Part shown: in pieces, positions 7,015 through 61,134 of the stretch | How the letters are laid out: the number at the start of each line of letters is the position of its first letter | Position numbering within the stretch: position 1 is the first letter of the stretch | From: an uncultured delta proteobacterium | Lineage (GTDB): Bacteria > Desulfobacterota > Binatia > UBA9968 | DNA length: 64,000 nt | Direction of reading: 5' to 3' | Assembly: GCA_963755715.1 (NCBI GenBank) | Contig: CAVWLW010000069.1 | Coordinates: 146,890-210,889 of the forward strand | The notes under the pieces: generated by a model | The model's input: the letters and a program-made list of their open reading frames with translations, nothing else | Database searches by the model: none | Told to the model about the DNA's origin: nothing | Translations under genes and position numbers: made by a program

Positions 7015-10000
7015 TTACGCGATCATTCCGCCGAGGCTTCTGAGCATGGCGACCACTTCGTCGGGCAAAACGGGCGGAATCTTTCCCATCATGTGGCAAG
7101 CAATGAGATTGTTGGCGGTCTGCTCAATGATGAGGGTCATATCGATGGTTTGACGCAGATTTGGTCCGCGGACGATAAGGCCGTGGTTCTGCAGGATCAC
7201 TGCGCTAGCGTCCTTCACAGCCGCACCAACTGCATCGGCTAGCTCGGCCGTTCCGGGCATGATGAACGGGATGCGCGGGATCTCCCCGATGTATGCGGCT
7301 TCTGTCGAGATCGGCAGAAATGGGATGTCCGACAGACCCAAGAGCGTTGCCTTCGGCGCATGCGAGTGGATCACCGCGCCGACATTTGGGTTGTTGCGGT
7401 ACACCGCGCAGTGCAACATGCGCTCGCTCGATGGTGCATGGGGAGGATCACCGATCGGATTTCCCTCCAGATCGATGCGCACCAACATATCGCTTCGAAG
7501 CGCGCCCTTGAAGCACGAATTGGGCGTGATCCACAGTTCGTGTTTGCCTGGGATACGCACGCTTACGTTGCCGCCCGTCGCAGTAATGAGTCCGTGAGCG
7601 TACATTTCCTCAACGGTGCGAATGACTTCGGCGCGAATATCACCGGCGACAATTCGATCCGCGTCCGCGCCGCTTGGCGCGGGCATAGTAAGCGTCCCGG
7701 CAGGTGCATTGTTCTGCGTGAGTTCTGCGTAGGCTACCCGTTCAAAAACGGCGTCAAGATCTTTGACTTCGGCGCGAGCCTCGGTGTAGAGACGATTGAA
7801 ATCGTTCTGAATGCGCTGCAGCGACATGGCCTTGATCGTGTCGCCAATGAATGACAGTTTGCCGGTCATCGCCGCCTTCGGACCGTTCTCTTTTCCGGTA
7901 AACAGCTTATCGAGAATATCAGCCTTCATTTTCAAAGTGACTTGCGGCTTGTCCGGCGACTCGCCCACGCCGCAACGCACTGCGCCTTGATCGAAAGCGG
8001 TATAGAAAGAGATTTTTATATCCGTGAGCTCATAGCGTACCGTCACCCGCCGGCCTTCAGCAAATGACAGGATTTTCTCATCGCGGTTCACCCGCTGGGT
8101 AAAGATGTCCAAGAGTTGTTCCATATGCGTACGCACTTCATTGAGTAGGTCCGAATCCGTGCGGTCCTGGTGCGTAAGCGAATGGTCGTTTCGCGGCCCA
8201 ATAGTCTCCGATCGAGAACCGAGAAAAGCATTCTTGAGACCGGACAGCAGGCTTTGCTTCTTTGCTGCACGCGGCGTTGCGGCGTGCAAGACCGACGACG
8301 CCTCTGGAGGCGACCCGGTCTGCGTGCTGCTGCTAGGAAGGTCGGTTACCGACGGCCGAGAGTTCTGCCGTAGTCGCTCGAGAATCTCAGTTGAAGGCAC
8401 CGGCCGCGGCGCGATCCAACTGAAATGATCGAGGACCTCAGCATTGGCGACGTTAGCCGCCCGCCCGTCGTGCAGGAGGTCAGCCAGGTTCGCGGTCACG
8501 ATGGCGCCCTGGTGGGAGAAGACTTCGAAGGTGTTGCCGCCGATGTGCGGCGTGGCGATCACATTCGCAAGCTGGAGTAGCGGATGATCTGAAGCTGGCG
8601 GTTCGACGGGAAATACATCCACCGCCGCGCCCGCAAGCCGCCCGTTTTTGAGCGCCGACACGAGCGCCGCTTCGTCAACCAGAGCCGCCCGGGCGGTATT
8701 GACTAAATATGCGCCTGGCTTCATCTGTTCAATCTCCGCGGGCCCGAGCAATGGCCGCGATTCGTCGGTCACGGCCGCGTGTAGGGTGATGAAATCGCTC
8801 TCGGCGAGGAGCTCTTGCAGCGAGACCGATTCGACGTCGAGGAGCACCGCCTTTTCGGGCGAAAGGAATGGATCATGGGCGATCAGCCGCGCCCCGAACG
8901 GCTGAAGTCGCTTAGCCACACATTGCCCGACGGCCCCGAGACCGACAATGCCGATCGTTTTATGCCACAACTCATGCCCCTGTAGGCCCTCGAACGCCCG
9001 GCCCATGCGGCCGACATCACCTTCTTCGCCGGGATCATGGAGGAATTGCGTCGCTTGCGGTAGCTTGCGCGCCAACATCAGCATGAAAGAGACCGCAAGG
9101 TCGGCGACCGCGTCGGCGTTGCGAGCCGGGGTCGTAATCACTAAAACGCCATGCGCTGTGCACGCCTCGATGTCGACGTTGACTGCGTTACTGCGGCAGC
9201 ACACGACGACGCGAAGATCCGGCGCCTTGCTCAGTACTTCCGCGTCTACTGCGTCAACCTCAGTGACGAACACCTGAACTCCGGCGAGCGCTTCGATGAG
9301 ATCGTCACCGGTAAGCAATCGTAGGTTTTCGCGAAAGCCTTCATAGCGCACTTCTCCAAGCTGGCGCAGTGCCGCCAAGGCTTGTTCGTCTATAGATGCA
9401 GTCACGAGGATATTGGGGCGTGGCGCATTACTATTGAATGGATCGCGCGCGCTATGCTTGGTCGCTTGTTGTATGAACGCTTGAATCGCGCTTGATTCGG
9501 CTAGCTCGTCGACCTTCTGACGCGCGGCGCGCATTTCAAGCCAGCGATCGTAGTGAGATTGATATGCCGCACGCCGATGCGGATCGGGCAGAAAACTACG
9601 CCGTCCACTGGCAAAACGCTTGGCGCCCTCGACAATGTTGGAATAGAGGCTCGCTCCGACGCCGGCGCAAATAGCCGCGCCAAGCGCCGAGCACTCCGGC
9701 ACAAGGACAGCTTCAATCGGGACGCCGGTCACATCCGAGAGAAGCTGGGCGAAGAATATGCTTTTCGACATTCCACCCGCCAATCGAAGCGATTCGAGCG
9801 GTTGGTTTTGCGCCGTTTTTTGCAGCAGTTCAATATTGCCCCTCGCCGCGAAAGCCAATCCTTCGACAACTGCTCGCGACACATGACGCCGGCGCGATGG
9901 ATCCTCGGCCACCAGCATTGGTGACAATGTGAGATGCCCGACGGGCATCCGCAGGTGACTGGCGTCGAATATTTCGGCTCCGAGCGTTGAAACGATCCCT

Positions 10001-43041: not shown

Positions 43042-44688
43042 TTAGTAATCGATCACGATCCGATCGCGTACACCTTTGACGCCCGGCACGCCCAGAGTCG
43101 CCCGCACCGCGGCGAGTTTCTGTCGTGGCGTCGCCACCCGGCCTTCGAGGTAAACGGTGCCGTCATCGACGTAGGACACCTGCACACCGTCGATGGCGCG
43201 GTCGCGAATCGCCTTGTAGATCTCGATCTGCAATTTTCTTTCCGTCAACGCTTCGCCGTTTGGCGCTGGCGGGCGGCGCTTGATCACCATGCGCTTGTTA
43301 TTAGGTATCTCCGGGGAGCTTTTTGCCGGGGCATTTACCGATGGATCAGGAGCCTCGGTTTGTGCGCGCTCGGCTGTTTCCGGCGCCGGCACGATTTCGT
43401 CATTTGTGTTATTTGGCGCAGGCGCCGAGCTGTCAGGCGGGGGTGTGACGTGGGATACCGTGTCGTGATCGTTTTCCAGCTTGTTTGCCGCCAACGGCGC
43501 CGCGGGCTGCGCACCCTCATGCTGTCGCCCAAAGTCGGGCAACTTTGCTAAATATGCGCGCACGAGCGGGACGAGATTGGGTTGGTTCTCCATGCCGATA
43601 AACAGTGCCGCAGCAGCAATCAGGCAGAGGATCACCAAAGTACGAACGCCGCTGCGATGCGCGTGCCGCGGCTTATGCCAGCCGATATCTACGAAGAATG
43701 GCTCGAATTCCGGCTCTGATGACCGGCCGTTTTTTCGTTCGTTTTCGCGCTTCTCCTTTTTACTGCTCCGATGCGCGCTTGTTAATGGACTGCTCGATTC
43801 CCACGATCGAGGGATGGCCTCGTCTCGCGCCGTATTTTCTTTTTGAGGCGGAGAGGCGTGGGGTGTCTTCTCGGAGTGGTCGACGAGCTTCAACTCGTGG
43901 GCCGCCTCCTCTATGTCTGCCGTCGTCACGGAGCTTTTAGCCTTGGCGTAGGCGATCAATAACGCATTATCGCAGATTACGTTGATGAGGCGCGGGATGC
44001 CTTTCGAATAATGCGCAAGGCGCACGATCGATTCTGCATCGAACAAGTCTTGTCTTTCGCATTGGACAGTTTTGAGTCTGGAATCGACGTATGAGCTTAC
44101 CTCACCCTCCTGTAGGGGCTTCATCCTGCAACGAACAGCTACTCTTTGTTTAAGCTGAAGTAGACCGGCTCGATCGAGCTTTTCTTCAAGCTCGGGCTGA
44201 CCTACCAAAACAATTTGGATGAGCTTTTCTGTATTGGTCTCCAGATTGGAAAGAAGCCTGAGTTCTTCGAGCATCTCCTCGTCTAGGTTCTGAGCTTCAT
44301 CGATCAACAAAGAAACAATATCGCCCCTCTCGAGCTGTGCGATCAAATAGTCATAAAACTGCCCGATCATCGCCAACCGCTCGCCTGTAGGATTCGGCGA
44401 CAATCCTAGATCGCTCAGAGTGAGCCGGAGCACCTCGTTAAAAGTGAGATGGGGATCGAAAATCCAAGCCGTATGAACGTTGCGATCCAGGTTGCCCAGC
44501 AGCCTTTTCAGCAGAGTCGTTTTTCCCGTGCCCGGTTCGCCCGTGACAACGATGAAGCCCTTGCGGGCAGCGATGCCGTAACGAAGCGTCGCAAACGCTT
44601 CGTCATAGCAGGCGTTGGTAAAGAAAAATCGCGGATCCGGCGTGATATTGAAAGGCGACTCCGGAAATCCAAAGTGTTCGTTGTACAT
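43042..44688 (-). CDS. ExeA/GspA-like AAA ATPase with TM helix and C-terminal BON domain
   Basis: MYNEHFGFPESPFNITPDP, GEPGTGKT, IDEAQ and GIPRLINVICD. BON segment GTVYLEGRV..GVKGVRDRI. Confidence 0.88.
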   Translation of the reverse strand: MYNEHFGFPESPFNITPDPRFFFTNACYDEAFATLRYGIAARKGFIVVTGEPGTGKTTLLKRLLGNLDRNVHTAWIFDPHLTFNEVLRLTLSDLGLSPNPTGERLAMIGQFYDYLIAQLERGDIVSLLIDEAQNLDEEMLEELRLLSNLETNTEKLIQIVLVGQPELEEKLDRAGLLQLKQRVAVRCRMKPLQEGEVSSYVDSRLKTVQCERQDLFDAESIVRLAHYSKGIPRLINVICDNALLIAYAKAKSSVTTADIEEAAHELKLVDHSEKTPHASPPQKENTARDEAIPRSWESSSPLTSAHRSSKKEKRENERKNGRSSEPEFEPFFVDIGWHKPRHAHRSGVRTLVILCLIAAAALFIGMENQPNLVPLVRAYLAKLPDFGRQHEGAQPAAPLAANKLENDHDTVSHVTPPPDSSAPAPNNTNDEIVPAPETAERAQTEAPDPSVNAPAKSSPEIPNNKRMVIKRRPPAPNGEALTERKLQIEIYKAIRDRAIDGVQVSYVDDGTVYLEGRVATPRQKLAAVRATLGVPGVKGVRDRIVIDY

Positions 44689-44733
44689 GGTTTTTACCCT
44701 CGCGAAACGTCGTTCTCGCGCGGCGCGGATAAA

Positions 44734-46350
44734 CTAATTGAGCCGATCAAAAAAAGCATCTTCTTTGTGCACGTAACCGCGGACGCTTTCACTCTCCATA
44801 GAACGTATCTTGAAATACTCGCCGCTCCTTCCAACCAGTTGAATTCGTGTTCCGGGACGCAGCGTGGCGATAACGTCCGATTTCGCATCCGGCTTTTCCC
44901 GGACAAAGGAATTTCCGATGACTTCAAAACGAGCCCGCGACGATGCCGGCTCTCGGCTTGAGCTCTGATCCCTCACAGAGGCCCGCTGGACAGTTTCTGG
45001 CGGCACCGAGGGATCAATGCGTTTTGGCTTCAGACCGGCGAGATCTTTATCTTTGTTCTCGATTCTTTCCAGTCTACGCTTACTTGCCGGCGTCAAAGAT
45101 TTTTTGACGCTATAGGGGCGCGCGGACTCTAACACAGGCGGATCCTGTCGCTCCGTGAGTTTAACCGTATCTTCATCGCTTGGACCGGTCGTCAAAACAC
45201 GTAAGATTCGCTCCGGAAGCGGCACGACGGCCTCTTTGATTTTTTCTATTTCTATATTGTCGCTCCCAAGCGAGAGATAATTTGAATTCTGCCGGTAGGA
45301 GAAAAACTCGACGACTCCCAGGACGAGGACGAGCGTCGCAAACACGGCCGCCAGTCCTGCCCATCGCGTTTCGTTGGCGTGGAAAGGCGGAGTTGTCTGC
45401 GTGCGGCTTTCAAAATCCGCCTCTCCATCTTGAGCCATGCGGCTTTCGTTTATGATTTCTCGGCGGCAGTCGATCTCTTCAGCCGGAATTTCTAATTTTG
45501 GCGCTATCAGCGAGACAGATGGCAACGATTTGGGATAAGGCTCTTCAAGATGAAGGTCGGCGGCGGCCTCAGCGATCATCTCCGCGTTAACCACTTTTTG
45601 CGATTTTGCGTATGCAATAAGTAGCGCATTATCGCAAATCACATTAATGAGTCGAGGAATACCTTTGGAATAGTATGAAATCCGCTCGATGGCGGTGGTC
45701 GCAAAGATAGCTTTCCCTGAATAGCCCACGGCCGCGAGTCTAGAATCAATGTAGGAAGAAGTTTCATGGCTCTCGAGCGGCACGAGTCGAGAGCGAAGAA
45801 CGATCCGTTGTTTGAGCTGACGAAGTGACGGTTTTTCGAGCTTGGATTCGAATTCAGGTTGGCCAAGCAATACGATTTGGAGCAGCTTTACACCTGCGCT
45901 CTCCAGATTCGAAAGCAGTCTCAGCTCCTCAAGGACATCGTCACGCAGATCCTGCGCTTCGTCAAGCAATAAAGCGACAATGTGATCGTCTCTGAGCTGT
46001 TCGATCAAATAGTCATAAAACTGCCCGATCATCGCCAGTCGATCCGGTGTTGGACTCGGTGGCAATCCTAGATCGCTCAGAGTGAGCCGGAAAATCTCGT
46101 TAAAAGTGAGATGCGGATCGAAAATCCAAGCCGTGTGGACGTTCCGATCAAAGTTGCCCAGCAACCTTTTCAGCAGAGTTGTTTTTCCCGTTCCGGGTTC
46201 GCCTGTAACGACAATGAAGCCCTTGCGGGCTTCGATCCCGTAACGAAGCGTCGCAAACGCTTCGTCGTAGCAGGAGTTGGTAAAGAAAAATCGCGAGTCC
46301 GGCGTGACATTAAACGGCGGCTCGCGTAGCCCGAAGTAATCCTCGTACAT
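44734..46350 (-). CDS. ExeA/GspA-like AAA ATPase with TM helix and C-terminal SH3 domain
   Basis: Same ATPase motifs as 43042-44688. SH3b segment VREKPDAKSDVIATLRPG...GYVH. Confidence 0.88.
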   Translation of the reverse strand: MYEDYFGLREPPFNVTPDSRFFFTNSCYDEAFATLRYGIEARKGFIVVTGEPGTGKTTLLKRLLGNFDRNVHTAWIFDPHLTFNEIFRLTLSDLGLPPSPTPDRLAMIGQFYDYLIEQLRDDHIVALLLDEAQDLRDDVLEELRLLSNLESAGVKLLQIVLLGQPEFESKLEKPSLRQLKQRIVLRSRLVPLESHETSSYIDSRLAAVGYSGKAIFATTAIERISYYSKGIPRLINVICDNALLIAYAKSQKVVNAEMIAEAAADLHLEEPYPKSLPSVSLIAPKLEIPAEEIDCRREIINESRMAQDGEADFESRTQTTPPFHANETRWAGLAAVFATLVLVLGVVEFFSYRQNSNYLSLGSDNIEIEKIKEAVVPLPERILRVLTTGPSDEDTVKLTERQDPPVLESARPYSVKKSLTPASKRRLERIENKDKDLAGLKPKRIDPSVPPETVQRASVRDQSSSREPASSRARFEVIGNSFVREKPDAKSDVIATLRPGTRIQLVGRSGEYFKIRSMESESVRGYVHKEDAFFDRLN

Positions 46351-46606
46351 AAAATTTTCTCGGATGGACGATTGGGCGAAATTACACCATGCCACCGATA
46401 ACGGTTCGCCGGATCGACTTTAAACCGAACACCTTGGTTTCGGTCGGGCACCAAATCAGTGTCACGACCATCTCATGTCGATATAAAAGAAGCAAATTCG
46501 GTTCCTGCACTTGCCGGATCTATCCATGCGTGATTTGAAGTAAGCTGTCGGGCTTAAGTGAGAAGTCCGGCGTTTGACAAGTCGCTGTACGACTCGCGTT
46601 ATCCGG

Positions 46607-49339: not shown

Positions 49340-49543
49340 CTAAGTAAAGCTTTGTTGATAGCGCGCCGCGGCGGGTGAATCTCGCGCGGAGATCTCTTCT
49401 GTATGAAGCCCAAGTCTTTGCGCATCGACAAAGCAATAATAGCAAACAGTCATATCGAGTAGTCTAACGCCCGATTCTTCGCTCGTGACTCGGTACGCTT
49501 TGCCCATTATGAATTGGCCGCAGTGTTGGCATTGATAATTCAT
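49340..49543 (-). CDS. 67-aa CxxC...CxxC zinc-binding microprotein
   Basis: MNYQCQHCG...TVCYYC, directly after a sigma54 promoter. Confidence 0.7.
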   Translation of the reverse strand: MNYQCQHCGQFIMGKAYRVTSEESGVRLLDMTVCYYCFVDAQRLGLHTEEISARDSPAAARYQQSFT

Positions 49544-51609: not shown

Positions 51610-52719
51610 TTATTGAATGCGGAATTGAGACGGCATGCATAGATTGATCGGCATGAGCAACAACTTGCATACCGACGGGATCGGCAGAGTCAAGGTTTCC
51701 CACGCAACGTTGAGAGTTCTTCGGCTTAAGAGAGATCCAAAGCTCGCGCCGTCCAACATATACTGATCGACGATTTTGTGGACCGCTTTGAGCGTTAAGT
51801 TGCCGAAAACAGGTTGGCCCAGGTAGAACCGCTGCAAAATGCCGTCGGGCAGTGAGATCAATCGTCGGCTTTCCAAATAACTCAACAAAAGATGAAGATA
51901 GGTCAGCGCTGTCGATTGATCGATCCAGGCAAAAATGTTTTCCCAACGCAGGCTGTCGCCCATCTGTTGCAAAAGAAAAATAAGGTCCAGGGCCGCGATC
52001 ATGCCGCCGACCTCTTTGAAGTCTTGCGCCCAATGGACCGCGAGATAAACAACCTGGAGTTCCGGAGAGAGTCGATGGACGGTCCTACCCTGAAACATAG
52101 ACGCTTTTATCTGCGAAGAAACGTGCGACGGTTGAAAAACACGGCCATGGCTCGCATGGTTTTTCGCCGAGATCAGACGATGATGAAGCTCGACCCAGAC
52201 CTGCTTCTCGTCGTGAAAAAACGGCATCACGTGATGGTGCGAATCGTATGTTTTATGCGGCGCATCGGAAGTTTGGCGGTAGCCAAGACCGTACAGCAAC
52301 GTTGCCATAGGGGCTAACGATTCTACCGGGACCAACAGGTCTATGTCGCGCATCGGTCGCAGGTGAAATTCGGGATAAAATTCTTCGGCGATCGAGATGC
52401 CCTTGAGCAGCGTAAGTTGGGGCACAGAACCGCAACTGGCATCGATGATCTCGGTCATGGCTTCGCGGTGATCCGCGCCGATCCATCGTGCCGTGAGATC
52501 GGCGGCTTTTAAAGACTGCCAATGGCGTGAAGTGAAGTTTTCTTGATTCTCTTTCGCGGCGTGAAAACAGGCCGGGCCCAAGCCGGATCGAATGATCCAA
52601 TCGAGCTGCGCGTCATCGAAATCGCCCAGCGAAAGATCGGTGCGCCCTCTCGAGACGGTCTCAAACAACGTCAGCAATTTCGCTCTTGCCGGCGAGCTTT
52701 CGCAGCGCATCGTACTCAC
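51610..52719 (-). CDS. Nucleotidyltransferase (NTP_transf_5-like)
   Basis: LLKG...FY...LRPMRDIDLLV, VELHHRL and LAVH motifs. Confidence 0.85.
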   Translation of the reverse strand: MSTMRCESSPARAKLLTLFETVSRGRTDLSLGDFDDAQLDWIIRSGLGPACFHAAKENQENFTSRHWQSLKAADLTARWIGADHREAMTEIIDASCGSVPQLTLLKGISIAEEFYPEFHLRPMRDIDLLVPVESLAPMATLLYGLGYRQTSDAPHKTYDSHHHVMPFFHDEKQVWVELHHRLISAKNHASHGRVFQPSHVSSQIKASMFQGRTVHRLSPELQVVYLAVHWAQDFKEVGGMIAALDLIFLLQQMGDSLRWENIFAWIDQSTALTYLHLLLSYLESRRLISLPDGILQRFYLGQPVFGNLTLKAVHKIVDQYMLDGASFGSLLSRRTLNVAWETLTLPIPSVCKLLLMPINLCMPSQFRIQ

Positions 52720-52742
52720 CCGATTGGGACTTGAAGAGAAAA

Positions 52743-53633
52743 TTACGAAAATAAACCCGGCGCGGCGCCATCATTCTGGCGCGAAAGCGCAGGTAGGGTC
52801 GACACAAGATCGCTTACCAGTTCACAGCTTGAACGAAGGTCGGCCGAACGAAGCTTGTAGCAAGCCGCGTTACAGGCGATTGCGATGGCGGCAGGCAAGC
52901 CGTCTTCCGTGTGTGCGAGTGGGTTTAGAGCCTGAGCAAATAATCGGGTGGCCGCTTCGCCCTTGCTGATACTTTGTAGCGTCGCACCTGTTTGGTCCTT
53001 GGGAGAATACTCCAGGAAAAACATCGCAGTCACAGGCACAGGTTGAGAAAGGGTTTGATTCGGCAGCATCGGCGTCGGCACGTGAAAAGTTCGAGATGTG
53101 CGAAGGATTTGGGCCGGCAGTGGATAGGCCTCCGGAGGCTCTCGTTTCAGGCATAGCGCGTGCGGATAGGGCGTCACCTTCATGGTTCGCAAATTTAAGG
53201 GAGCAAGCTCGTCGCTCAGATAACGGAAGCCGTGATGCAGCAAGCCCCAGGTCATGGTGGATTTGCCCTGTCCCGATGGGGCGACCAGGAGGATCGCATT
53301 GCCAGAAATTTCCAGCGCCGCCGCATGAACAAAGTAGAGGTCACCGCGCAGGCGCTGCAGCTCGATCGTCAGATCCTTTTCGAAAAGAAAAATAAGTTCG
53401 CCGTCATCGAGCGCCGGCAGCGGGGGACATCCTGCACGTAGGATGCAATATTCACCTCGCCCGTTGTTTTCGTTGATGGTGTATTCCAGGTTTGCACGGG
53501 CGTCATCTTGACGAAGCATCGAGCCATAGCCGTTTGCCAAAAGATTCCATATGGCGCGGTTCTGACATGAGATCTGCACGACGCGATCAAAAATAGAAAG
53601 CGTCAACAGACGTGAGGATGTTATTGAACTCAT
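52743..53633 (-). CDS. HPr-kinase-related Ser kinase
   Basis: VHAAAL, Walker A APSGQGKST and YLSDE. Confidence 0.85.
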   Translation of the reverse strand: MSSITSSRLLTLSIFDRVVQISCQNRAIWNLLANGYGSMLRQDDARANLEYTINENNGRGEYCILRAGCPPLPALDDGELIFLFEKDLTIELQRLRGDLYFVHAAALEISGNAILLVAPSGQGKSTMTWGLLHHGFRYLSDELAPLNLRTMKVTPYPHALCLKREPPEAYPLPAQILRTSRTFHVPTPMLPNQTLSQPVPVTAMFFLEYSPKDQTGATLQSISKGEAATRLFAQALNPLAHTEDGLPAAIAIACNAACYKLRSADLRSSCELVSDLVSTLPALSRQNDGAAPGLFS

Positions 53634-53731
53634 GTCGTGAAAGGCCGATGCCGCAAATGGTATTGACTCTGTACCCGCAGCGCCGCCATTCCAACAGTCG
53701 AAATTACCGCGCTGTGGTTAGCGAAGCTCCT

Positions 53732-53748
53732 GGCCCAGCGGCTGGGCC
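53732..53748 (-). other. GC-rich hairpin just after the peptide stop codon
   Basis: GGCCCAGC-G-GCTGGGCC with no U-tract. Confidence 0.55.
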
Positions 53749-53752
53749 GTCA

Positions 53753-53968
53753 TTAACTGCCGGCTTGCCCGGACTTGGATCCGTTCGGTTGCTGATTCTG
53801 ATCCGTTTCCTTGTCAACTTTGTAACTATCTCTGCTCTTAGTGCTCGATCTCGAAGCTCCGCTACCGGCTGCGGCAAAAGCCGGCAGTGCTTTCAGGGTC
53901 AAAATCATCGGCACCGCATACGCTGCTTTCTTGATAAAGTCTCGTCGCTCGGATTTTTCTTCAAACAT
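53753..53968 (-). CDS. 71-aa putative RiPP-like precursor with twin-arginine signal
   Basis: AAGGAG 7 nt before the ATG. Sequence MFEEKSERRDFIKKAAYAVPMILTLKALPAFAAAGSGASRSSTKSRDSYKVDKETDQNQQPNGSKSGQAGS*. It is hidden inside the 267-aa ORF call. Confidence 0.8.
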   Translation of the reverse strand: MFEEKSERRDFIKKAAYAVPMILTLKALPAFAAAGSGASRSSTKSRDSYKVDKETDQNQQPNGSKSGQAGS

Positions 53969-54029
53969 GGGATGTCTCCTTTCATTGAACATAAATTTAA
54001 ATTCATCGGGATTCGGCAAATTCACCCGT

Positions 54030-54359
54030 TCAACATTCTTCCAGGAGCTTCGATCGGCGCAACGTCTCGACCGTAGCCAGCACGTCCCTACGAGCCGTCG
54101 GGTAGTCGATCTCGAATGCTTGGCAAAGCTCGTGCGTGATTTCGTCCGACGTACGAATCCCATCACAACGCTCCCATATGTAGGTCGCGGTTTTGTTGAA
54201 CTGGTGAATAAACTCCTCCCGGCGGTCGAGCACAACCGTTTCTCCTTCAACCACGCGGGTTCGTATATCCGGCCGCCGCTTCGGTCGAAGCATCGAGGAT
54301 CGCGGCGCATCGAGATTGCCATGAGTTGTCCCCGCTGCTGTAGCTTTGTATTCCTGCAT
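54030..54359 (-). CDS. PqqD-family RiPP recognition element
   Basis: VEGETVVLD..IHQFNKTATYIWERCDG..I..LCQAFEID..TARRDV..LRRSKLL. RBS AAGGAGG. Confidence 0.9.
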   Translation of the reverse strand: MQEYKATAAGTTHGNLDAPRSSMLRPKRRPDIRTRVVEGETVVLDRREEFIHQFNKTATYIWERCDGIRTSDEITHELCQAFEIDYPTARRDVLATVETLRRSKLLEEC

Positions 54360-54536: not shown

Positions 54537-56465
54537 TCAAGCCGTTTCTCTGGCAATCCGCAAGTTGCGCAGGACGTCCTTTTTAGTTTGCTGACGACGC
54601 AGTTGTTCCGTGGTGTCCATGTCGGTTGGGCGAAAAGTCGGGACCATTTCGCAGAGCACCTCTAACGCCAGCCAAGGCTTGCCGTTGATCGCCAGCCGCT
54701 CCATTTCCTCGATCTTTCGGGTGACAGAATCTAAGTCGGCTACCCAGCCCGATTGCACTCGTTTAATCTTTTCGACTTCCGACGGGACGATCATTTCGTC
54801 CATCGCGACCAACTCCTCGCGCAGCTTTTCTCCCGGCCGCAGGCCGACGACTTGGATGGCGATCTCGTCGTCAGGGATAAAACCCGCGAGACGAATCAAA
54901 TGACGCGCCATTTCCATAAGCTTCACCTGCTCGCCCATCTCTAGCACGAATATGTCTCCGCCGCGCGCGAGGGCGCCCGACTGGAGCACCAATTGAACCG
55001 CCTCCGGAATCGTCATGAAGTAGCGGGTCATCTCGGGATGGGTAACCGTTACAGGGCCGCCCTGCTCGATTTGCTTAAGAAACAGGGGAACCACGCTGCC
55101 ATTGCTCCCCAGGACATTGCCAAAGCGCACGGCCGTGAATATCGTTTTGACTCCTTCAGCGCTCTTTGCCAACGCTTGGATGTACATTTCACCGACGCGT
55201 TTGGTCGCACCCATGACGTTGGTCGGGTTGACGGCTTTGTCGGTCGAAATTAGCACGAACCGCTCGATCTTTTTTCGCAGCGCGAGCTGAATCAGACGGT
55301 GAGTGCCGACGACGTTGTTCAGCACGGCTTCTCCCGGATGTTGCTCCATCATCGGCACATGCTTATATGCCGCCGCGTGAAAGATGATTTGCGGATTCTC
55401 TTGGAGAAAAACCTGTTCGATGGGCCTGATGTGCTTCACGTCAGCAAGCACGGAAACCCGGTTCACGTCGGGAAACGAACGCGCGAATTCCATGTCTATG
55501 TCGTAAAGCGCGCTTTCGCTCTTATCCAAAAGAATCAGACGCGCGGGCTCATATTTCGCGATCTGCCGAGCCAACTCAGAGCCGATCGATCCACCCGCAC
55601 CCGTCACCAGGATCCTCTTGCCCTTCACCAGGTTCTGCACGGGGCCGATATCCAACCCTACCGGCAACCGCTCCAGGAGATCTTCGATCGATAAATCTTG
55701 GATCTGGCTGGCGCTGACTTTGCCATTTTGCAGCTTCGCCACGCCCGGGAGAGTTTTGATCGGAATCTTGAACAGCTCCAAGGCTGTGAGAATTTGCCGG
55801 ACCAACGCAGGTGAAGCGCTCGGGATCGCGAGAAGAACTTCAGCAATCTTGTGCGATCGCAGAATCTTGGGGAGGTCTTGCCGCGAGCCGAGCACGGGCA
55901 GCCCATGAATACGCTGACCTATCTTGCTTGCACTGTCGTCGATAAAACCTATCGGTTCGTAATCATAGAGAGCGCCATTGTTTTTTATATCGCGAACGAT
56001 CATCTCGCCCGCATCTCCCGCCCCATAGATCAAAACACGCTTGCCTCGATGCACCTGCCCCACGCCATGATAGAGGCGGCGGGCCAGCCGACTGCCCCCC
56101 ATGAAGAAAATCAGCAGCAAGGAATCAATGATAAAAACCGACAGCGGATATTTTACGAGACCCATGCCCCAATGAACCAAAACATAAAAAACAGCGGTAC
56201 TCGAGAGAACTCCATAAATGACATTCCGGAGATCCCAAATACCGGTATAACGCCAGAGTCCTTGGTAAAGCCGCAGGGGAATAAAGATGACTCCTCGAAT
56301 CAGGACGAGCCAAGGGATCATCTGAATGAAAAGCGCGATTTCCTGAGCCGGAATCACGCCATCGAATCTAATCCAGAAAGCCAAATAATTGGCCAGCGCG
56401 ATCAATACGATGTGGAATCCGACGTTGAGAAATCGCCGAAATTTTAGAAGCATTGATTTGGTCAT
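54537..56465 (-). CDS. Membrane UDP-GlcNAc 4,6-dehydratase (CapD/PglF/WbpM family)
   Basis: Four TM helices, [34 protein letters not shown] and RFGNVLGS. Confidence 0.93.
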
Positions 56466-56652
56466 GAGAATATCTCCAATGCCGATCGTGAACTGCCTTA
56501 CTGGTGCGTCCGGCGGCAAGATTGAAAGGAAAAAATACTGCGAATCGGGAACTTTTCAGCTCCCGATCCTTCTACCCTAAGTGGTCATGCTAAGAGGAAA
56601 CGATTCGGAAAACGAAATAGAGGAAAGCATTCAGGAGACAAATAATTCGGGA

Positions 56653-59225: not shown

Positions 59226-59999
59226 TCAGACGGCACGTGCTATCCCCAAGACGTTCCAGGTCGTCTCGTCGGGGTTCCGATCGAATTCCGGGAAAGCTCC
59301 CAAGCGTACAGGAGCAAAGTCACAGCGTTCTAGAAACAAATCCAATTCGAGGGGGAAGAAAAAGCGCATCAGATGAGTCTCTTCGGTTTCGGATCTCAGC
59401 CGGTCTCCCTCCATTTTCCACAAGTGATAAGTCACTTTGCAGAGATGGCGCTGGACGTCAAGTTGCCCGGAGGCGAAGCGCAGTATTTGGCCGCCGTCCG
59501 TGGGGATCGATTTGACGCGATCGCTGGGCCCTTCTTTGAGCACTGCGGGACCGTACCACACGTCGAAAATAAGAAGGCCGCCTGATCGCACATGCTGCCT
59601 GGCGCTTCGAAGAGCCGCAAGCACGTTATGGTTTTCCAATTGATAGCCTAGCACCGCGAACATCATCAGCGCCGCATCAAACGATTGATCGACCCGTAAA
59701 CTGCAGATATCTCCTTCATAGAAAACAGCCTTGGCGTCGAGCTGCTGATCCGCTGCTTTCTTGCGGGCCCTATCAAGCATTGTATTTGAGCGGTCCACGC
59801 CGACAATTTCGTAACCCTGCTGGGCGAGTGGCAAGGCATGGTTTCCCGTGCCGCAGCCAAGATCCAAGATGTTCCGAACGGGTCGGTCGCCGTACGTTTT
59901 GAGCAACCTAGCGATCAATCCGCACTCTTCTAAATAGTCCTTGTCTTTGTAGAGGACATCATACGTACCCGCATATTCCGAACCAAAGACCCCGCTCAT
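59226..59999 (-). CDS. Class I SAM methyltransferase
   Basis: YDVLYKDKDY, ILDLGCGTG and FDVWYGPAV. ATGA overlap with the aminotransferase. Confidence 0.88.
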   Translation of the reverse strand: MSGVFGSEYAGTYDVLYKDKDYLEECGLIARLLKTYGDRPVRNILDLGCGTGNHALPLAQQGYEIVGVDRSNTMLDRARKKAADQQLDAKAVFYEGDICSLRVDQSFDAALMMFAVLGYQLENHNVLAALRSARQHVRSGGLLIFDVWYGPAVLKEGPSDRVKSIPTDGGQILRFASGQLDVQRHLCKVTYHLWKMEGDRLRSETEETHLMRFFFPLELDLFLERCDFAPVRLGAFPEFDRNPDETTWNVLGIARAV

Positions 60000-61134
60000 G
60001 AAAGGACCTCGTGCACGGCAGCGCACACCTCGTCCAGTTGCTCTGCTGTGAGCGCCAACCCCGAGGGGAAATATAATCCCTGACGAGCAATCCGCTCTGT
60101 TACTGGAAATCGCTCCTGCACGAATAATCCTCTCTGATGAAAAACTGGTTGCTCATGCAATCCCAAAAAAAATGGGCGAGTTTCTATGCCATGCTGTTTC
60201 AGCCTCTGCGCAAAAATAGTCGCGTCCATGCCGGTTTCTTCGGACAAGACGACACCGTACATCCAATAGACATTCCGGGCCCAGGGTTCCTCTACCGGCA
60301 ATTGCAAGCCCTTTAAGCCTGCGAGGCGCCGATTGTATTCCTGGCCGATCCAGCGCTTGCGCGCGACGATTTCCTCGAACCGTTCCAATTGAGCGAGGCC
60401 AAGTGCAGCCTGCAGGTTTGTAAGGCGAAAATTGAATCCGAGCTCCTCATGATGAAAACGCCGATTGGCTTGAAAACAGAGGTTACGCAAAGAGCGCGCC
60501 TTTTCAGCCAAGCTTGGGTCATCGGTGAGAACCATGCCACCCTCACCGGTCGTGATCAAGCTTATTAGCATAAAAACTGAAACAACTGAGCGTCCCGAAA
60601 TTACCGCAACGACGCCATGCGGAGTGGAGCGTGTCCCGTTTGGAGAGATATTCCGCCCCATGCACCTCCGCAGCGTCTTCAACAATGGCGAGGCCATGTT
60701 TCTCCGCCAGGTCCAGAATCGGATCCATATCCACCGGGTGTCCATATATATGTACCGGCATAATAGCGCGAGTCCGCGCGGTAATCTTCCTCTTCACTTG
60801 ATCGACATCCATGCACCACGTCCGAGGATCACAATCCACCAAAACCGGCACGCCGCCGTTATAAACAACCGCAAGAGCACAGGAAATGATCGTAAATGTC
60901 GGCATGATGACTTCATCGCCCGGCTTTAACCCGAGACAAGCTACCGACAACTTGGAGGGCGACTGTGCCGTTACTCACAGCAATCCCATAGCGCCGGCCG
61001 CAGTAAGCTGCCCATTTCTCTTCAAATTCTTCGATAAATCTGCCCGCCGAAGAAATCCAGCCGGTGCGTACACATTCCGAGACGTACTCTAACTCGCGTG
61101 CACCCAGATACGGCTCATTCACGGGTATCATCAC
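59996..61134 (-). CDS. DegT/DnrJ sugar aminotransferase (perosamine-synthase-like), two frameshifts
   Basis: Three consecutive frames: IPVNEP..GWISS..SNGTVAL, then PVHIYGHP..EDAAE..FSFYANK, then ITTGEGG. Shifts near 60950 and 60560. Confidence 0.85.

What the first reader, a model, noticed from the sequence alone, without database searches (positions are those of the whole stretch)
51610..54359. Cyclase-less RiPP-like cassette (RRE + Tat/YxxP peptide + HprK-like kinase + nucleotidyltransferase) inside a polysaccharide operon
Seen: four co-oriented genes, PqqD/RRE, 71-aa peptide, HprK-like kinase and nucleotidyltransferase, lie between the CapD-type dehydratase and the UDP-HexNAc dehydrogenase. 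No lasso cyclase, B2 peptidase, radical SAM or YcaO gene is adjacent. Known: RREs bind YxxP-type leaders, and paeninodin/pseudomycoidin-type lasso clusters pair an HprK-like kinase that phosphorylates the C-terminal Ser with a nucleotidyltransferase. HprK-related kinase + PqqD neighbourhoods occur in EPS loci, and I know of no defined substrate for them. Inference: the peptide is the substrate, is phosphorylated and then nucleotidylated or glycosylated using the operon's NDP-sugars, and is exported as a linear phospho-glycopeptide, glycan primer or signal.
Basis: partly seen in the sequence, partly recalled or inferred. Interest (0 to 1): 0.92.

Follow-up and report, generated by a model that had tools for sequence, protein, structure and literature searches.

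The report
Tat-leader phosphopeptide gene cassette
Four neighbouring genes encode a small peptide plus the adaptor and enzymes that probably add phosphate (and perhaps a nucleotide or sugar) to one fixed internal serine before the peptide is exported, making it a likely Gram-negative cousin of a phosphopeptide family recently described in Bacillus relatives.

Summary
The four genes are real and the 71-aa peptide is very probably the kinase's substrate, but the target is not its last serine. Kinase homologs carry this peptide in 46 of 47 well-flanked genome loci. In 120 non-redundant precursors the leader is fixed (twin-Arg, YxxP, AxA, then Gly-Ser; Ser36 position in all 120), whereas the C-terminal residue is Ser in only 11. 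The RRE keeps both residues that read Tyr-type leaders, and a co-fold (0.92, best control 0.71) lays residues 14-36 across the RRE and the kinase's catalytic residues. No lasso cyclase, B2 or SipW-type peptidase is linked. The closest known system is the Bacillota LPP family (Popov 2026, PMC13381572), which is phosphorylated on an equivalent internal Ser but uses its own peptidase and ABC pump; here a Tat signal seems to replace both (inferred). The nucleotidyltransferase (36/47 loci) and polysaccharide context (26/47) are frequent, not obligatory. The scan noted related cassettes, and this genome's second copy, before. Verdict: new variant of a known kind; export, sugar addition and function untested.

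The parts
54030..54359 (-). Stand-alone RRE (PqqD/B1 fold), Tyr-reading type
   Evidence: PF05402 60.4 bits; profile hits TfuB1, TbiB1, PqqD, PbaB1, LppB structures; N55 (67/67) and D92 (58/67) align with LppB N33 and D70
53976..53982 (-). Ribosome-binding site of the peptide gene
   Evidence: AAAGGAG 7 nt upstream of the ATG at 53968
53753..53968 (-). 71-aa precursor peptide: conserved 36-residue leader plus variable hydrophilic tail
   Evidence: covered by contigs of three RNA libraries shown in the table (weak)
53933..53950 (-). Twin-arginine motif, residues 7-12 (ERRDFI)
   Evidence: Z-[RK]R-x-hydrophobic-hydrophobic in 117 of 120 precursors; RR 107, KR 12
53903..53920 (-). RRE-binding motif YxxPxI, residues 17-22
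   Evidence: Y17 95%, P20 100% (the anchor used), I/V22 97%; contacts RRE strand 49-58 in the co-fold
53873..53881 (-). A-F-A, predicted signal peptidase I site (cut after Ala32)
   Evidence: small residues at both -3 and -1 in 106 of 120; inferred, not tested
53861..53866 (-). Invariant Gly35-Ser36, predicted phospho-acceptor
   Evidence: G 97%, S 98% in register; all 120 have the Ser 16 or 17 residues after the Pro; last residue of the confident co-fold interface
52743..53633 (-). HprK/PEPCK-fold kinase with His103, Lys124, Asp141, Glu142
   Evidence: TIGR04352 76.5 bits; four residues invariant in 46 homologs; model pLDDT 91.8 matches PEPCK and HprK folds
51610..52719 (-). NTP_transf_5 nucleotidyltransferase, catalytic DxD intact
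   Evidence: PF14907 104 bits; D125, D127, D245 invariant in 58 homologs; nearest folds ANT(2'')-Ia Z 12.2, rmsd 3.5, 166 aligned; LnuA Z 9.8; FKRP Z 7.2
54537..56519 (-). Upstream CapD-type polysaccharide dehydratase (context)
   Evidence: PF02719 387 bits; same side of the cassette in L006, L008, L023, L032, L092, L093, L137
50175..51545 (-). Downstream nucleotide-sugar dehydrogenase (context)
   Evidence: TIGR03026 433 bits; same side in L006, L008, L010, L012, L023, L093, L137 and others

Best explanation
A linear phosphopeptide (RiPP) cassette whose leader is read twice. In the cytoplasm the RRE binds YxxPxI (strongly inferred) and presents the leader to the HprK-fold kinase, which phosphorylates, probably several times, the invariant internal Ser36 (inferred from conservation, the co-fold and the LPP precedent). 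Where present, the nucleotidyltransferase adds a nucleotide or sugar-phosphate to that phosphate (weakly inferred; accessory step). The same leader then acts as a Tat signal, and housekeeping signal peptidase I cuts after Ala32, releasing a 39-residue hydrophilic peptide with the modified Ser at +4 into the periplasm or matrix (inferred). Housekeeping Tat and peptidase thus replace the dedicated pump and peptidase of Bacillota LPPs. Most likely role: a modified component or signal of the cell surface/biofilm matrix. My odds by step: substrate 0.9, Ser36 0.8, Tat export 0.7, second modification 0.5. None of these steps is shown by experiment.
For: Peptide within 2.5 kb of the kinase in 46 of 47 and RRE in 46 of 47 genome loci with 3 kb or more on both sides, in MAGs titled Binatia, Rokubacteria, Beta/Gammaproteobacteria, Planctomycetes, Acidobacteriota and others. 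Fixed leader, free tail, Ser invariant. RRE keeps the LppB N33/D70 equivalents, shown in LppB to be needed for binding. Co-fold of kinase, RRE, ATP and peptide 1-45: 0.92 against best control 0.71 (mark reached by 116 of 157 solved and 2 of 215 mismatched pairs; runs share at least 63% of contacts; partner pLDDT at least 58); interface is peptide 14-36 and includes kinase H103 and E142. In LPPs the kinase phosphorylates Ser+3, five residues after a Phe; here Ser36 is five after Phe31 (F or Y in 98 of 120). Tat features: motif 117/120, AxA 106/120, Met a median 8 residues before the second Arg, only 1 of 114 tails with a hydrophobic stretch, which fits Tat's tolerance of small unfolded hydrophilic cargo (PMC13673990). 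TatC in 48 of 50 host genomes and twice in this one; no SipW-type peptidase over cut-off in 50 or in this genome.
Against: No biochemical data. The co-fold passes by only 0.01 over the required margin, an unrelated 54-residue protein scored 0.71, RRE-leader complexes are solved so that part may be recalled, and Ser71 was not in the model. Only 18 of 79 leaders match the Tat model TIGR01409 even at E 0.1, this one below cut-off; the h-region is mild (mean hydropathy 1.4, two prolines). TatC is near-universal in these groups, so its presence says little. The peptides were collected with a profile seeded on this leader, which favours motif conservation. The nucleotidyltransferase is absent from 11 of 47 loci, from 3 of those 11 genomes, broken in this genome's second copy, and its LPP counterpart had no effect in a heterologous host.
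Confidence: 0.62

Rival explanations
1. Same phosphorylation, but the twin-Arg is not an export signal: the basic N-terminus docks on the RRE or kinase, and the peptide stays in the cytoplasm or stays uncleaved in the membrane.
For: Weak Tat-profile scores and mild h-region; lasso and LPP leaders also have basic residues before the Tyr.
Against: Residues 1-13 are outside the confident interface yet the second Arg is invariant in alignment A4 and only the first is ever Lys; AxA conserved; no dedicated exporter or peptidase recurs in 313 neighbour ORFs scanned.
Confidence: 0.15
2. The peptide is a working part of the polysaccharide pathway: a phospho-Ser primer or anchor on which the locus's glycan is built or hung.
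For: Fixed position between capD and the sugar dehydrogenase across Binatia-type loci; polysaccharide genes in 26 of 47 loci, large Ig/Fn3 surface proteins in 14; the tail sequence is free, as for a carrier; LPPs also sit in capsule loci and are co-expressed with them.
Against: 21 of 47 loci show no polysaccharide gene in the stretch held, and 16 of those still have the nucleotidyltransferase; no glycosyltransferase is a constant partner.
Confidence: 0.15
3. One reading: the kinase modifies C-terminal Ser71.
For: This peptide ends in Ser; PadeK, ThcoK and PsmK act on a C-terminal Ser (PMC9266682).
Against: C-terminal Ser in 11 of 120, about the tail background of 7.9%; the C44 copy and the near-identical L087 copy end in Lys.
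Confidence: 0.04
4. An orphan tailoring module served by lasso cyclase and B2 elsewhere, or a kinase acting on HPr or sugars with a bystander peptide.
For: About ten of 50 host genomes hold a B2-like gene somewhere; the kinase fold is shared with HprK and PEPCK.
Against: This genome (93.6% complete) has no cyclase over cut-off and only a weak transglutaminase hit inside a 483-aa protein; nearest B2 to a cassette is about 40 kb away; cyclase over cut-off in 1 of 50, on another contig; HPr kinase model only 19 bits of 240; kinase almost never occurs without peptide and RRE.
Confidence: 0.04

Closest known systems
Linear polyphosphorylated peptides (LPP; LppA/K/B/S/D/N) of Bacillota, Popov et al. 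Nat Commun 2026, PMC13381572
   Same: Discrete Tyr-reading RRE, HprK-like kinase, NTP transferase, no cyclase; 1-3 precursors with conserved N-terminus and variable tail; YxxPx[VI]L...F-x4-S; target is an internal Ser just past the leader; capsule-locus context.
   Different: No SipW-type peptidase or MsbA-like pump; twin-Arg and AxA instead of HQxIxFET; Tyr-to-Ser spacing 19 against 18; Gram-negative and other non-Bacillota hosts, where the paper says LPPs are restricted to Bacillota and never mentions Tat; RRE profile scores actinobacterial lasso B1 higher (E 9e-14) than LppB (6e-7).
Phosphorylated/glycosylated lasso peptides (paeninodin PadeK, ThcoK, SyanK; pseudomycoidin PsmK/PsmN)
   Same: Kinase with His-Lys-Asp-Asp-type motif (here His-Lys-Asp-Glu) paired with a nucleotidyltransferase; YxxP leader.
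   Different: No macrolactam cyclase or B2; target Ser is not C-terminal; export-type leader.
HPr-rel-A system (NCBIfam TIGR04352 kinase, TIGR04353 PqqD)
   Same: HprK-related kinase with PqqD protein (and, from memory, a nucleotidyltransferase near polysaccharide genes).
   Different: Both models score below cut-off (76.5 of 200; 15.9 of 35), so a sister family; the precursor family matches no curated model.

Membership tests
LPP (Bacillota) | Discrete RRE with N33/D70 equivalents | tested here: met
   N55 67/67, D92 58/67
LPP (Bacillota) | HprK-like kinase and NTP transferase in the cluster | tested here: met
   NTase within the locus in 36 of 47 relatives
LPP (Bacillota) | Archaeal-type (SipW-like) signal peptidase LppS | tested here: not met
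   TIGR02228: none in this genome, none over cut-off in 50 hosts
LPP (Bacillota) | MsbA-like exporter in the cluster | tested here: not met
   none adjacent in the window; one ABC membrane-ATPase type among 313 neighbour ORFs, not a recurring partner
LPP (Bacillota) | Leader YxxPxVLxHQxIxFETxxS | tested here: inconclusive
   YxxPx[IV]L and F-x4-S kept; HQ and ET replaced, one extra residue
LPP (Bacillota) | Polyphosphorylation of the Ser after the leader | not testable with these tools
   needs mass spectrometry; conservation and co-fold point to Ser36
Phosphorylated lasso peptides | Macrolactam cyclase and B2 peptidase | tested here: not met
   the one adjacent asparagine-synthetase gene (L080) is a true AsnB
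Phosphorylated lasso peptides | Conserved C-terminal Ser | tested here: not met
   11 of 120
Class I Tat substrate | Z-R-R-x-hydrophobic-hydrophobic motif, h-region, AxA site | tested here: met
   117/120 and 106/120, against the definition in PMC13673990; curated Tat model below cut-off for this peptide
Class I Tat substrate | TatC-dependent export | not testable with these tools
   TatC present; export not measured
HPr-rel-A system | TIGR04352 and TIGR04353 above cut-off | tested here: not met
   76.5 of 200 and 15.9 of 35 bits

The most novel reading that the evidence does not exclude
The peptide is a dedicated glycan carrier: a phospho-linked sugar chain is built on Ser36 in the cytoplasm from the locus's NDP-sugars, and the Tat pathway is used because it can move the bulky conjugate intact. 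That would be a peptide-primed, Tat-dependent route for exporting surface glycan, with one short leader read by RRE, kinase, TatC and signal peptidase in turn.
Probability: 0.15. Interest if true: 0.88.

Novelty: new variant of a known kind. Interest (0 to 1): 0.58.

Why it matters
It supplies a defined substrate and residue (Ser36) for a widespread, unannotated kinase-RRE cassette (1344 kinase relatives at E 1e-10 or better), extends the 2026 LPP concept beyond Bacillota, and predicts a leader that serves at once as enzyme-docking tag and Tat signal. The whole unit is 2.75 kb and needs only housekeeping export, so it can be tested in laboratory E. coli, and it may reveal what the PF14907 nucleotidyltransferases do, which is unresolved for both PsmN and LppN.

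Tried and rejected
Single-sequence scan of genome contigs found nothing; the alignment did. A phylum sample had the kinase in 1 of 300 other genomes at E 1e-15, a distant variant with a radical SAM gene. Plasmid search gave 4 distant hits. Promoter/terminator scan was at chance level. Leader on long folded proteins: not found; 120 listed hits of the 'longer' search are 80-231 aa with no Pfam domain (weak evidence, candidates capped at 8000), and none elsewhere in this genome. ESM Atlas neighbours are unnamed clusters; named ones are Tat signals below 0.9, a lead only. Foldseek gave no match at E 0.001 for the nucleotidyltransferase; its donor cannot be read from the fold. RNA-library contigs from four studies cover the cassette in pieces but cannot show strand or level and may be DNA. 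ORF picking in GC-rich loci often chose shadow frames, so the neighbour scans can miss genes; absences were therefore re-tested genome-wide. Literature searches for this Tat-leader family found nothing: (one search gave two lasso papers, listing only); the library lacks most subscription papers.

Full report
Observation. The four genes are as described, all on the minus strand with gaps of 61, 119 and 23 nt. Family scans give PqqD for 54030-54359, a sub-threshold HprK-related kinase A match for 52743-53633, NTP_transf_5 for 51610-52719, and no family for the 71-aa peptide. The flanks are a CapD-type dehydratase and a nucleotide-sugar dehydrogenase. The peptide has a strong ribosome site; its frame is open further upstream, which is why some databases hold 87-90 aa versions. 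The cassette's GC (0.537) equals the window's (0.538).

Own genome. A second cassette lies on contig C44: RRE, a 58-aa peptide with the same leader, a 46% identical kinase and a broken nucleotidyltransferase remnant. Its peptide ends in Lys. The genome (93.6% complete) has no lasso cyclase over cut-off, one weak transglutaminase hit in a 483-aa protein, no SipW-type peptidase, and two TatC genes.

Relatives. An alignment of 46 kinases fetched 80 genome loci and 80 metagenome loci (the best 80 of 101 and of 376). A profile seeded on the two own leaders converged on hits in 143 of these 160 loci; 11 have two or three peptides; 14 of the 17 misses end within 200 bp of the kinase. Among the 47 genome loci with at least 3 kb on both sides, 46 have the peptide, 46 the RRE, 31 the nucleotidyltransferase within 3 kb and 36 within the locus. 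RRE-peptide-kinase is the usual order; the transferase is downstream or divergent. Of the 11 loci without it, 8 genomes have one elsewhere. Polysaccharide genes occur in 26 of 47 loci and large Ig/Fn3-type proteins in 14, by similarity to neighbours I had annotated, so these are lower bounds; others sit among housekeeping genes. In 50 of the 80 host genomes, no B2 peptidase lies nearer than about 40 kb to a cassette, a cyclase passes cut-off once on another contig (48 weaker matches were not listed), and no SipW-type peptidase passes; TatC is in 48.

The precursor. 159 hits collapsed to 121 non-redundant peptides; one (L005) lacked the anchor and was dropped, leaving 120. Consensus: (S/T)RRxFxKKAAYxxPxILTLxAxPxFAxxGS, then a tail of 5-148 residues (median about 30) rich in G, R, K, P. 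Tyr17 95%, Gly35 97%, Ser36 98% in register, and the two others are shifted by one. The last residue is Ser in 11. So selection acts on Ser36, not Ser71. The twin-Arg motif is met by 117, an AxA-type site four residues before the Ser by 106, and 113 of 114 measurable tails lack a hydrophobic stretch. A Tat review defines the motif this way and states that small unfolded hydrophilic cargo is tolerated (PMC13673990, passages). Against this, the curated Tat model matches only 18 of 79 leaders at E 0.1.

The enzymes. The RRE keeps Asn55 and Asp92, aligned with LppB N33 and D70, which hold the Pro and Tyr of the leader. The kinase has invariant His103, Lys124, Asp141, Glu142, matching the His-Lys-Asp-Asp motif of lasso kinases (PMC9266682, passages) and an HprK/PEPCK fold. 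The transferase keeps its DxD and resembles ANT(2'')-Ia, LnuA and, more weakly, FKRP, which allows either NMP or sugar-phosphate transfer. A co-fold of kinase, RRE, ATP and peptide 1-45 scored 0.92 against a best control of 0.71 (mark reached by 116 of 157 solved and 2 of 215 mismatched pairs; contacts agree at least 63%; partner pLDDT at least 58). The confident interface is peptide 14-36, RRE strand 49-58, and kinase residues including H103, E142 and the conserved 226-240 helix. The margin is slim, RRE-leader structures are known, the output does not list a Ser36-His103 pair, and Ser71 was not modelled; it supports, not shows, the ternary complex.

Mechanism. Most likely the RRE binds the leader, the kinase phosphorylates Ser36, the transferase sometimes extends it, and Tat with signal peptidase I exports and releases the tail. 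The gene linkage and motif conservation are shown; every chemical and transport step is inferred. Rivals are a non-exported peptide, a glycan primer or anchor for the locus, the C-terminal Ser model, and lasso or HPr roles; the last two are disfavoured by the counts above.

Comparison. The Bacillota LPP paper (PMC13381572; I read the abstract, introduction, five of six results sections, discussion and search passages, not the supplements or methods) describes cyclase-less RRE, kinase and NTP-transferase clusters in capsule loci, phosphorylated on Ser+3, five residues after a Phe, as here. It works like an LPP but fails membership on the dedicated peptidase and pump, and the paper restricts LPPs to Bacillota and has no occurrence of Tat, twin-arginine or Gram-negative. 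Its supplementary data, unread, may list non-Bacillota clusters. Five searches found no paper on the Tat-leader form. The lead to that paper came from earlier notes of this scan, which describe related Tat-leader cassettes on other DNA and this genome's C44 copy; my Tat and internal-Ser reading was recorded before seeing them.

Verdict. Observation confirmed, interpretation partly supported with the target residue corrected. New variant of a known kind, interest 0.58: a clear, cheap test exists, but the general concept is in print and the biological role is open.

Noticed in passing
window 49340-49543 (-): 67-aa protein with two CxxC motifs and no Pfam or NCBIfam match; kept downstream of the sugar dehydrogenase, before the PAS and sigma-54 genes, in 11 loci at 54-100% identity; RNA-library contigs cover it in all four runs laid.
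   Followed up: partly
window 59996-61134 (-): DegT-type sugar aminotransferase split over three frames; other upstream polysaccharide genes also look fragmented, so decay or assembly errors.
   Followed up: no
window 43042-46395 (-): Two tandem ExeA-like ATPases resembling the PEP-CTERM system ATPase (below cut-off), one ending in a BON and one in an SH3 domain.
   Followed up: no
L003:9900-11863 (G000 C44 about 101900-103862, -): Second RRE-peptide-kinase cassette with a broken nucleotidyltransferase, beside FemAB-like, epimerase and Fn3-protein genes.
   Followed up: yes
L005:4209-8225 (-): Distant variant with a radical SAM gene between kinase and nucleotidyltransferase, upstream of a Wzc-like gene; its peptide lacks the Gly-Ser in register.
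   Followed up: partly
L022, L023, L030, L089, L093, L096, L125, L126, L025, L067 peptide tails: 10 of 120 tails share an N-[NQ]-G-[VL] motif, eight as a conserved GNNGVGNG...DPQPPGNPP...NDGPG block with no family match; 22 of 120 end in aromatic or amphipathic stretches such as IFGF/LFGF that might bind membranes.
   Followed up: partly
L017, L036, L055, L061, L070, L084, L147: Large secreted Ig/cadherin/PKD/Fn3/malectin proteins often flank the cassette (14 of 47 loci); link unexplained.
   Followed up: no
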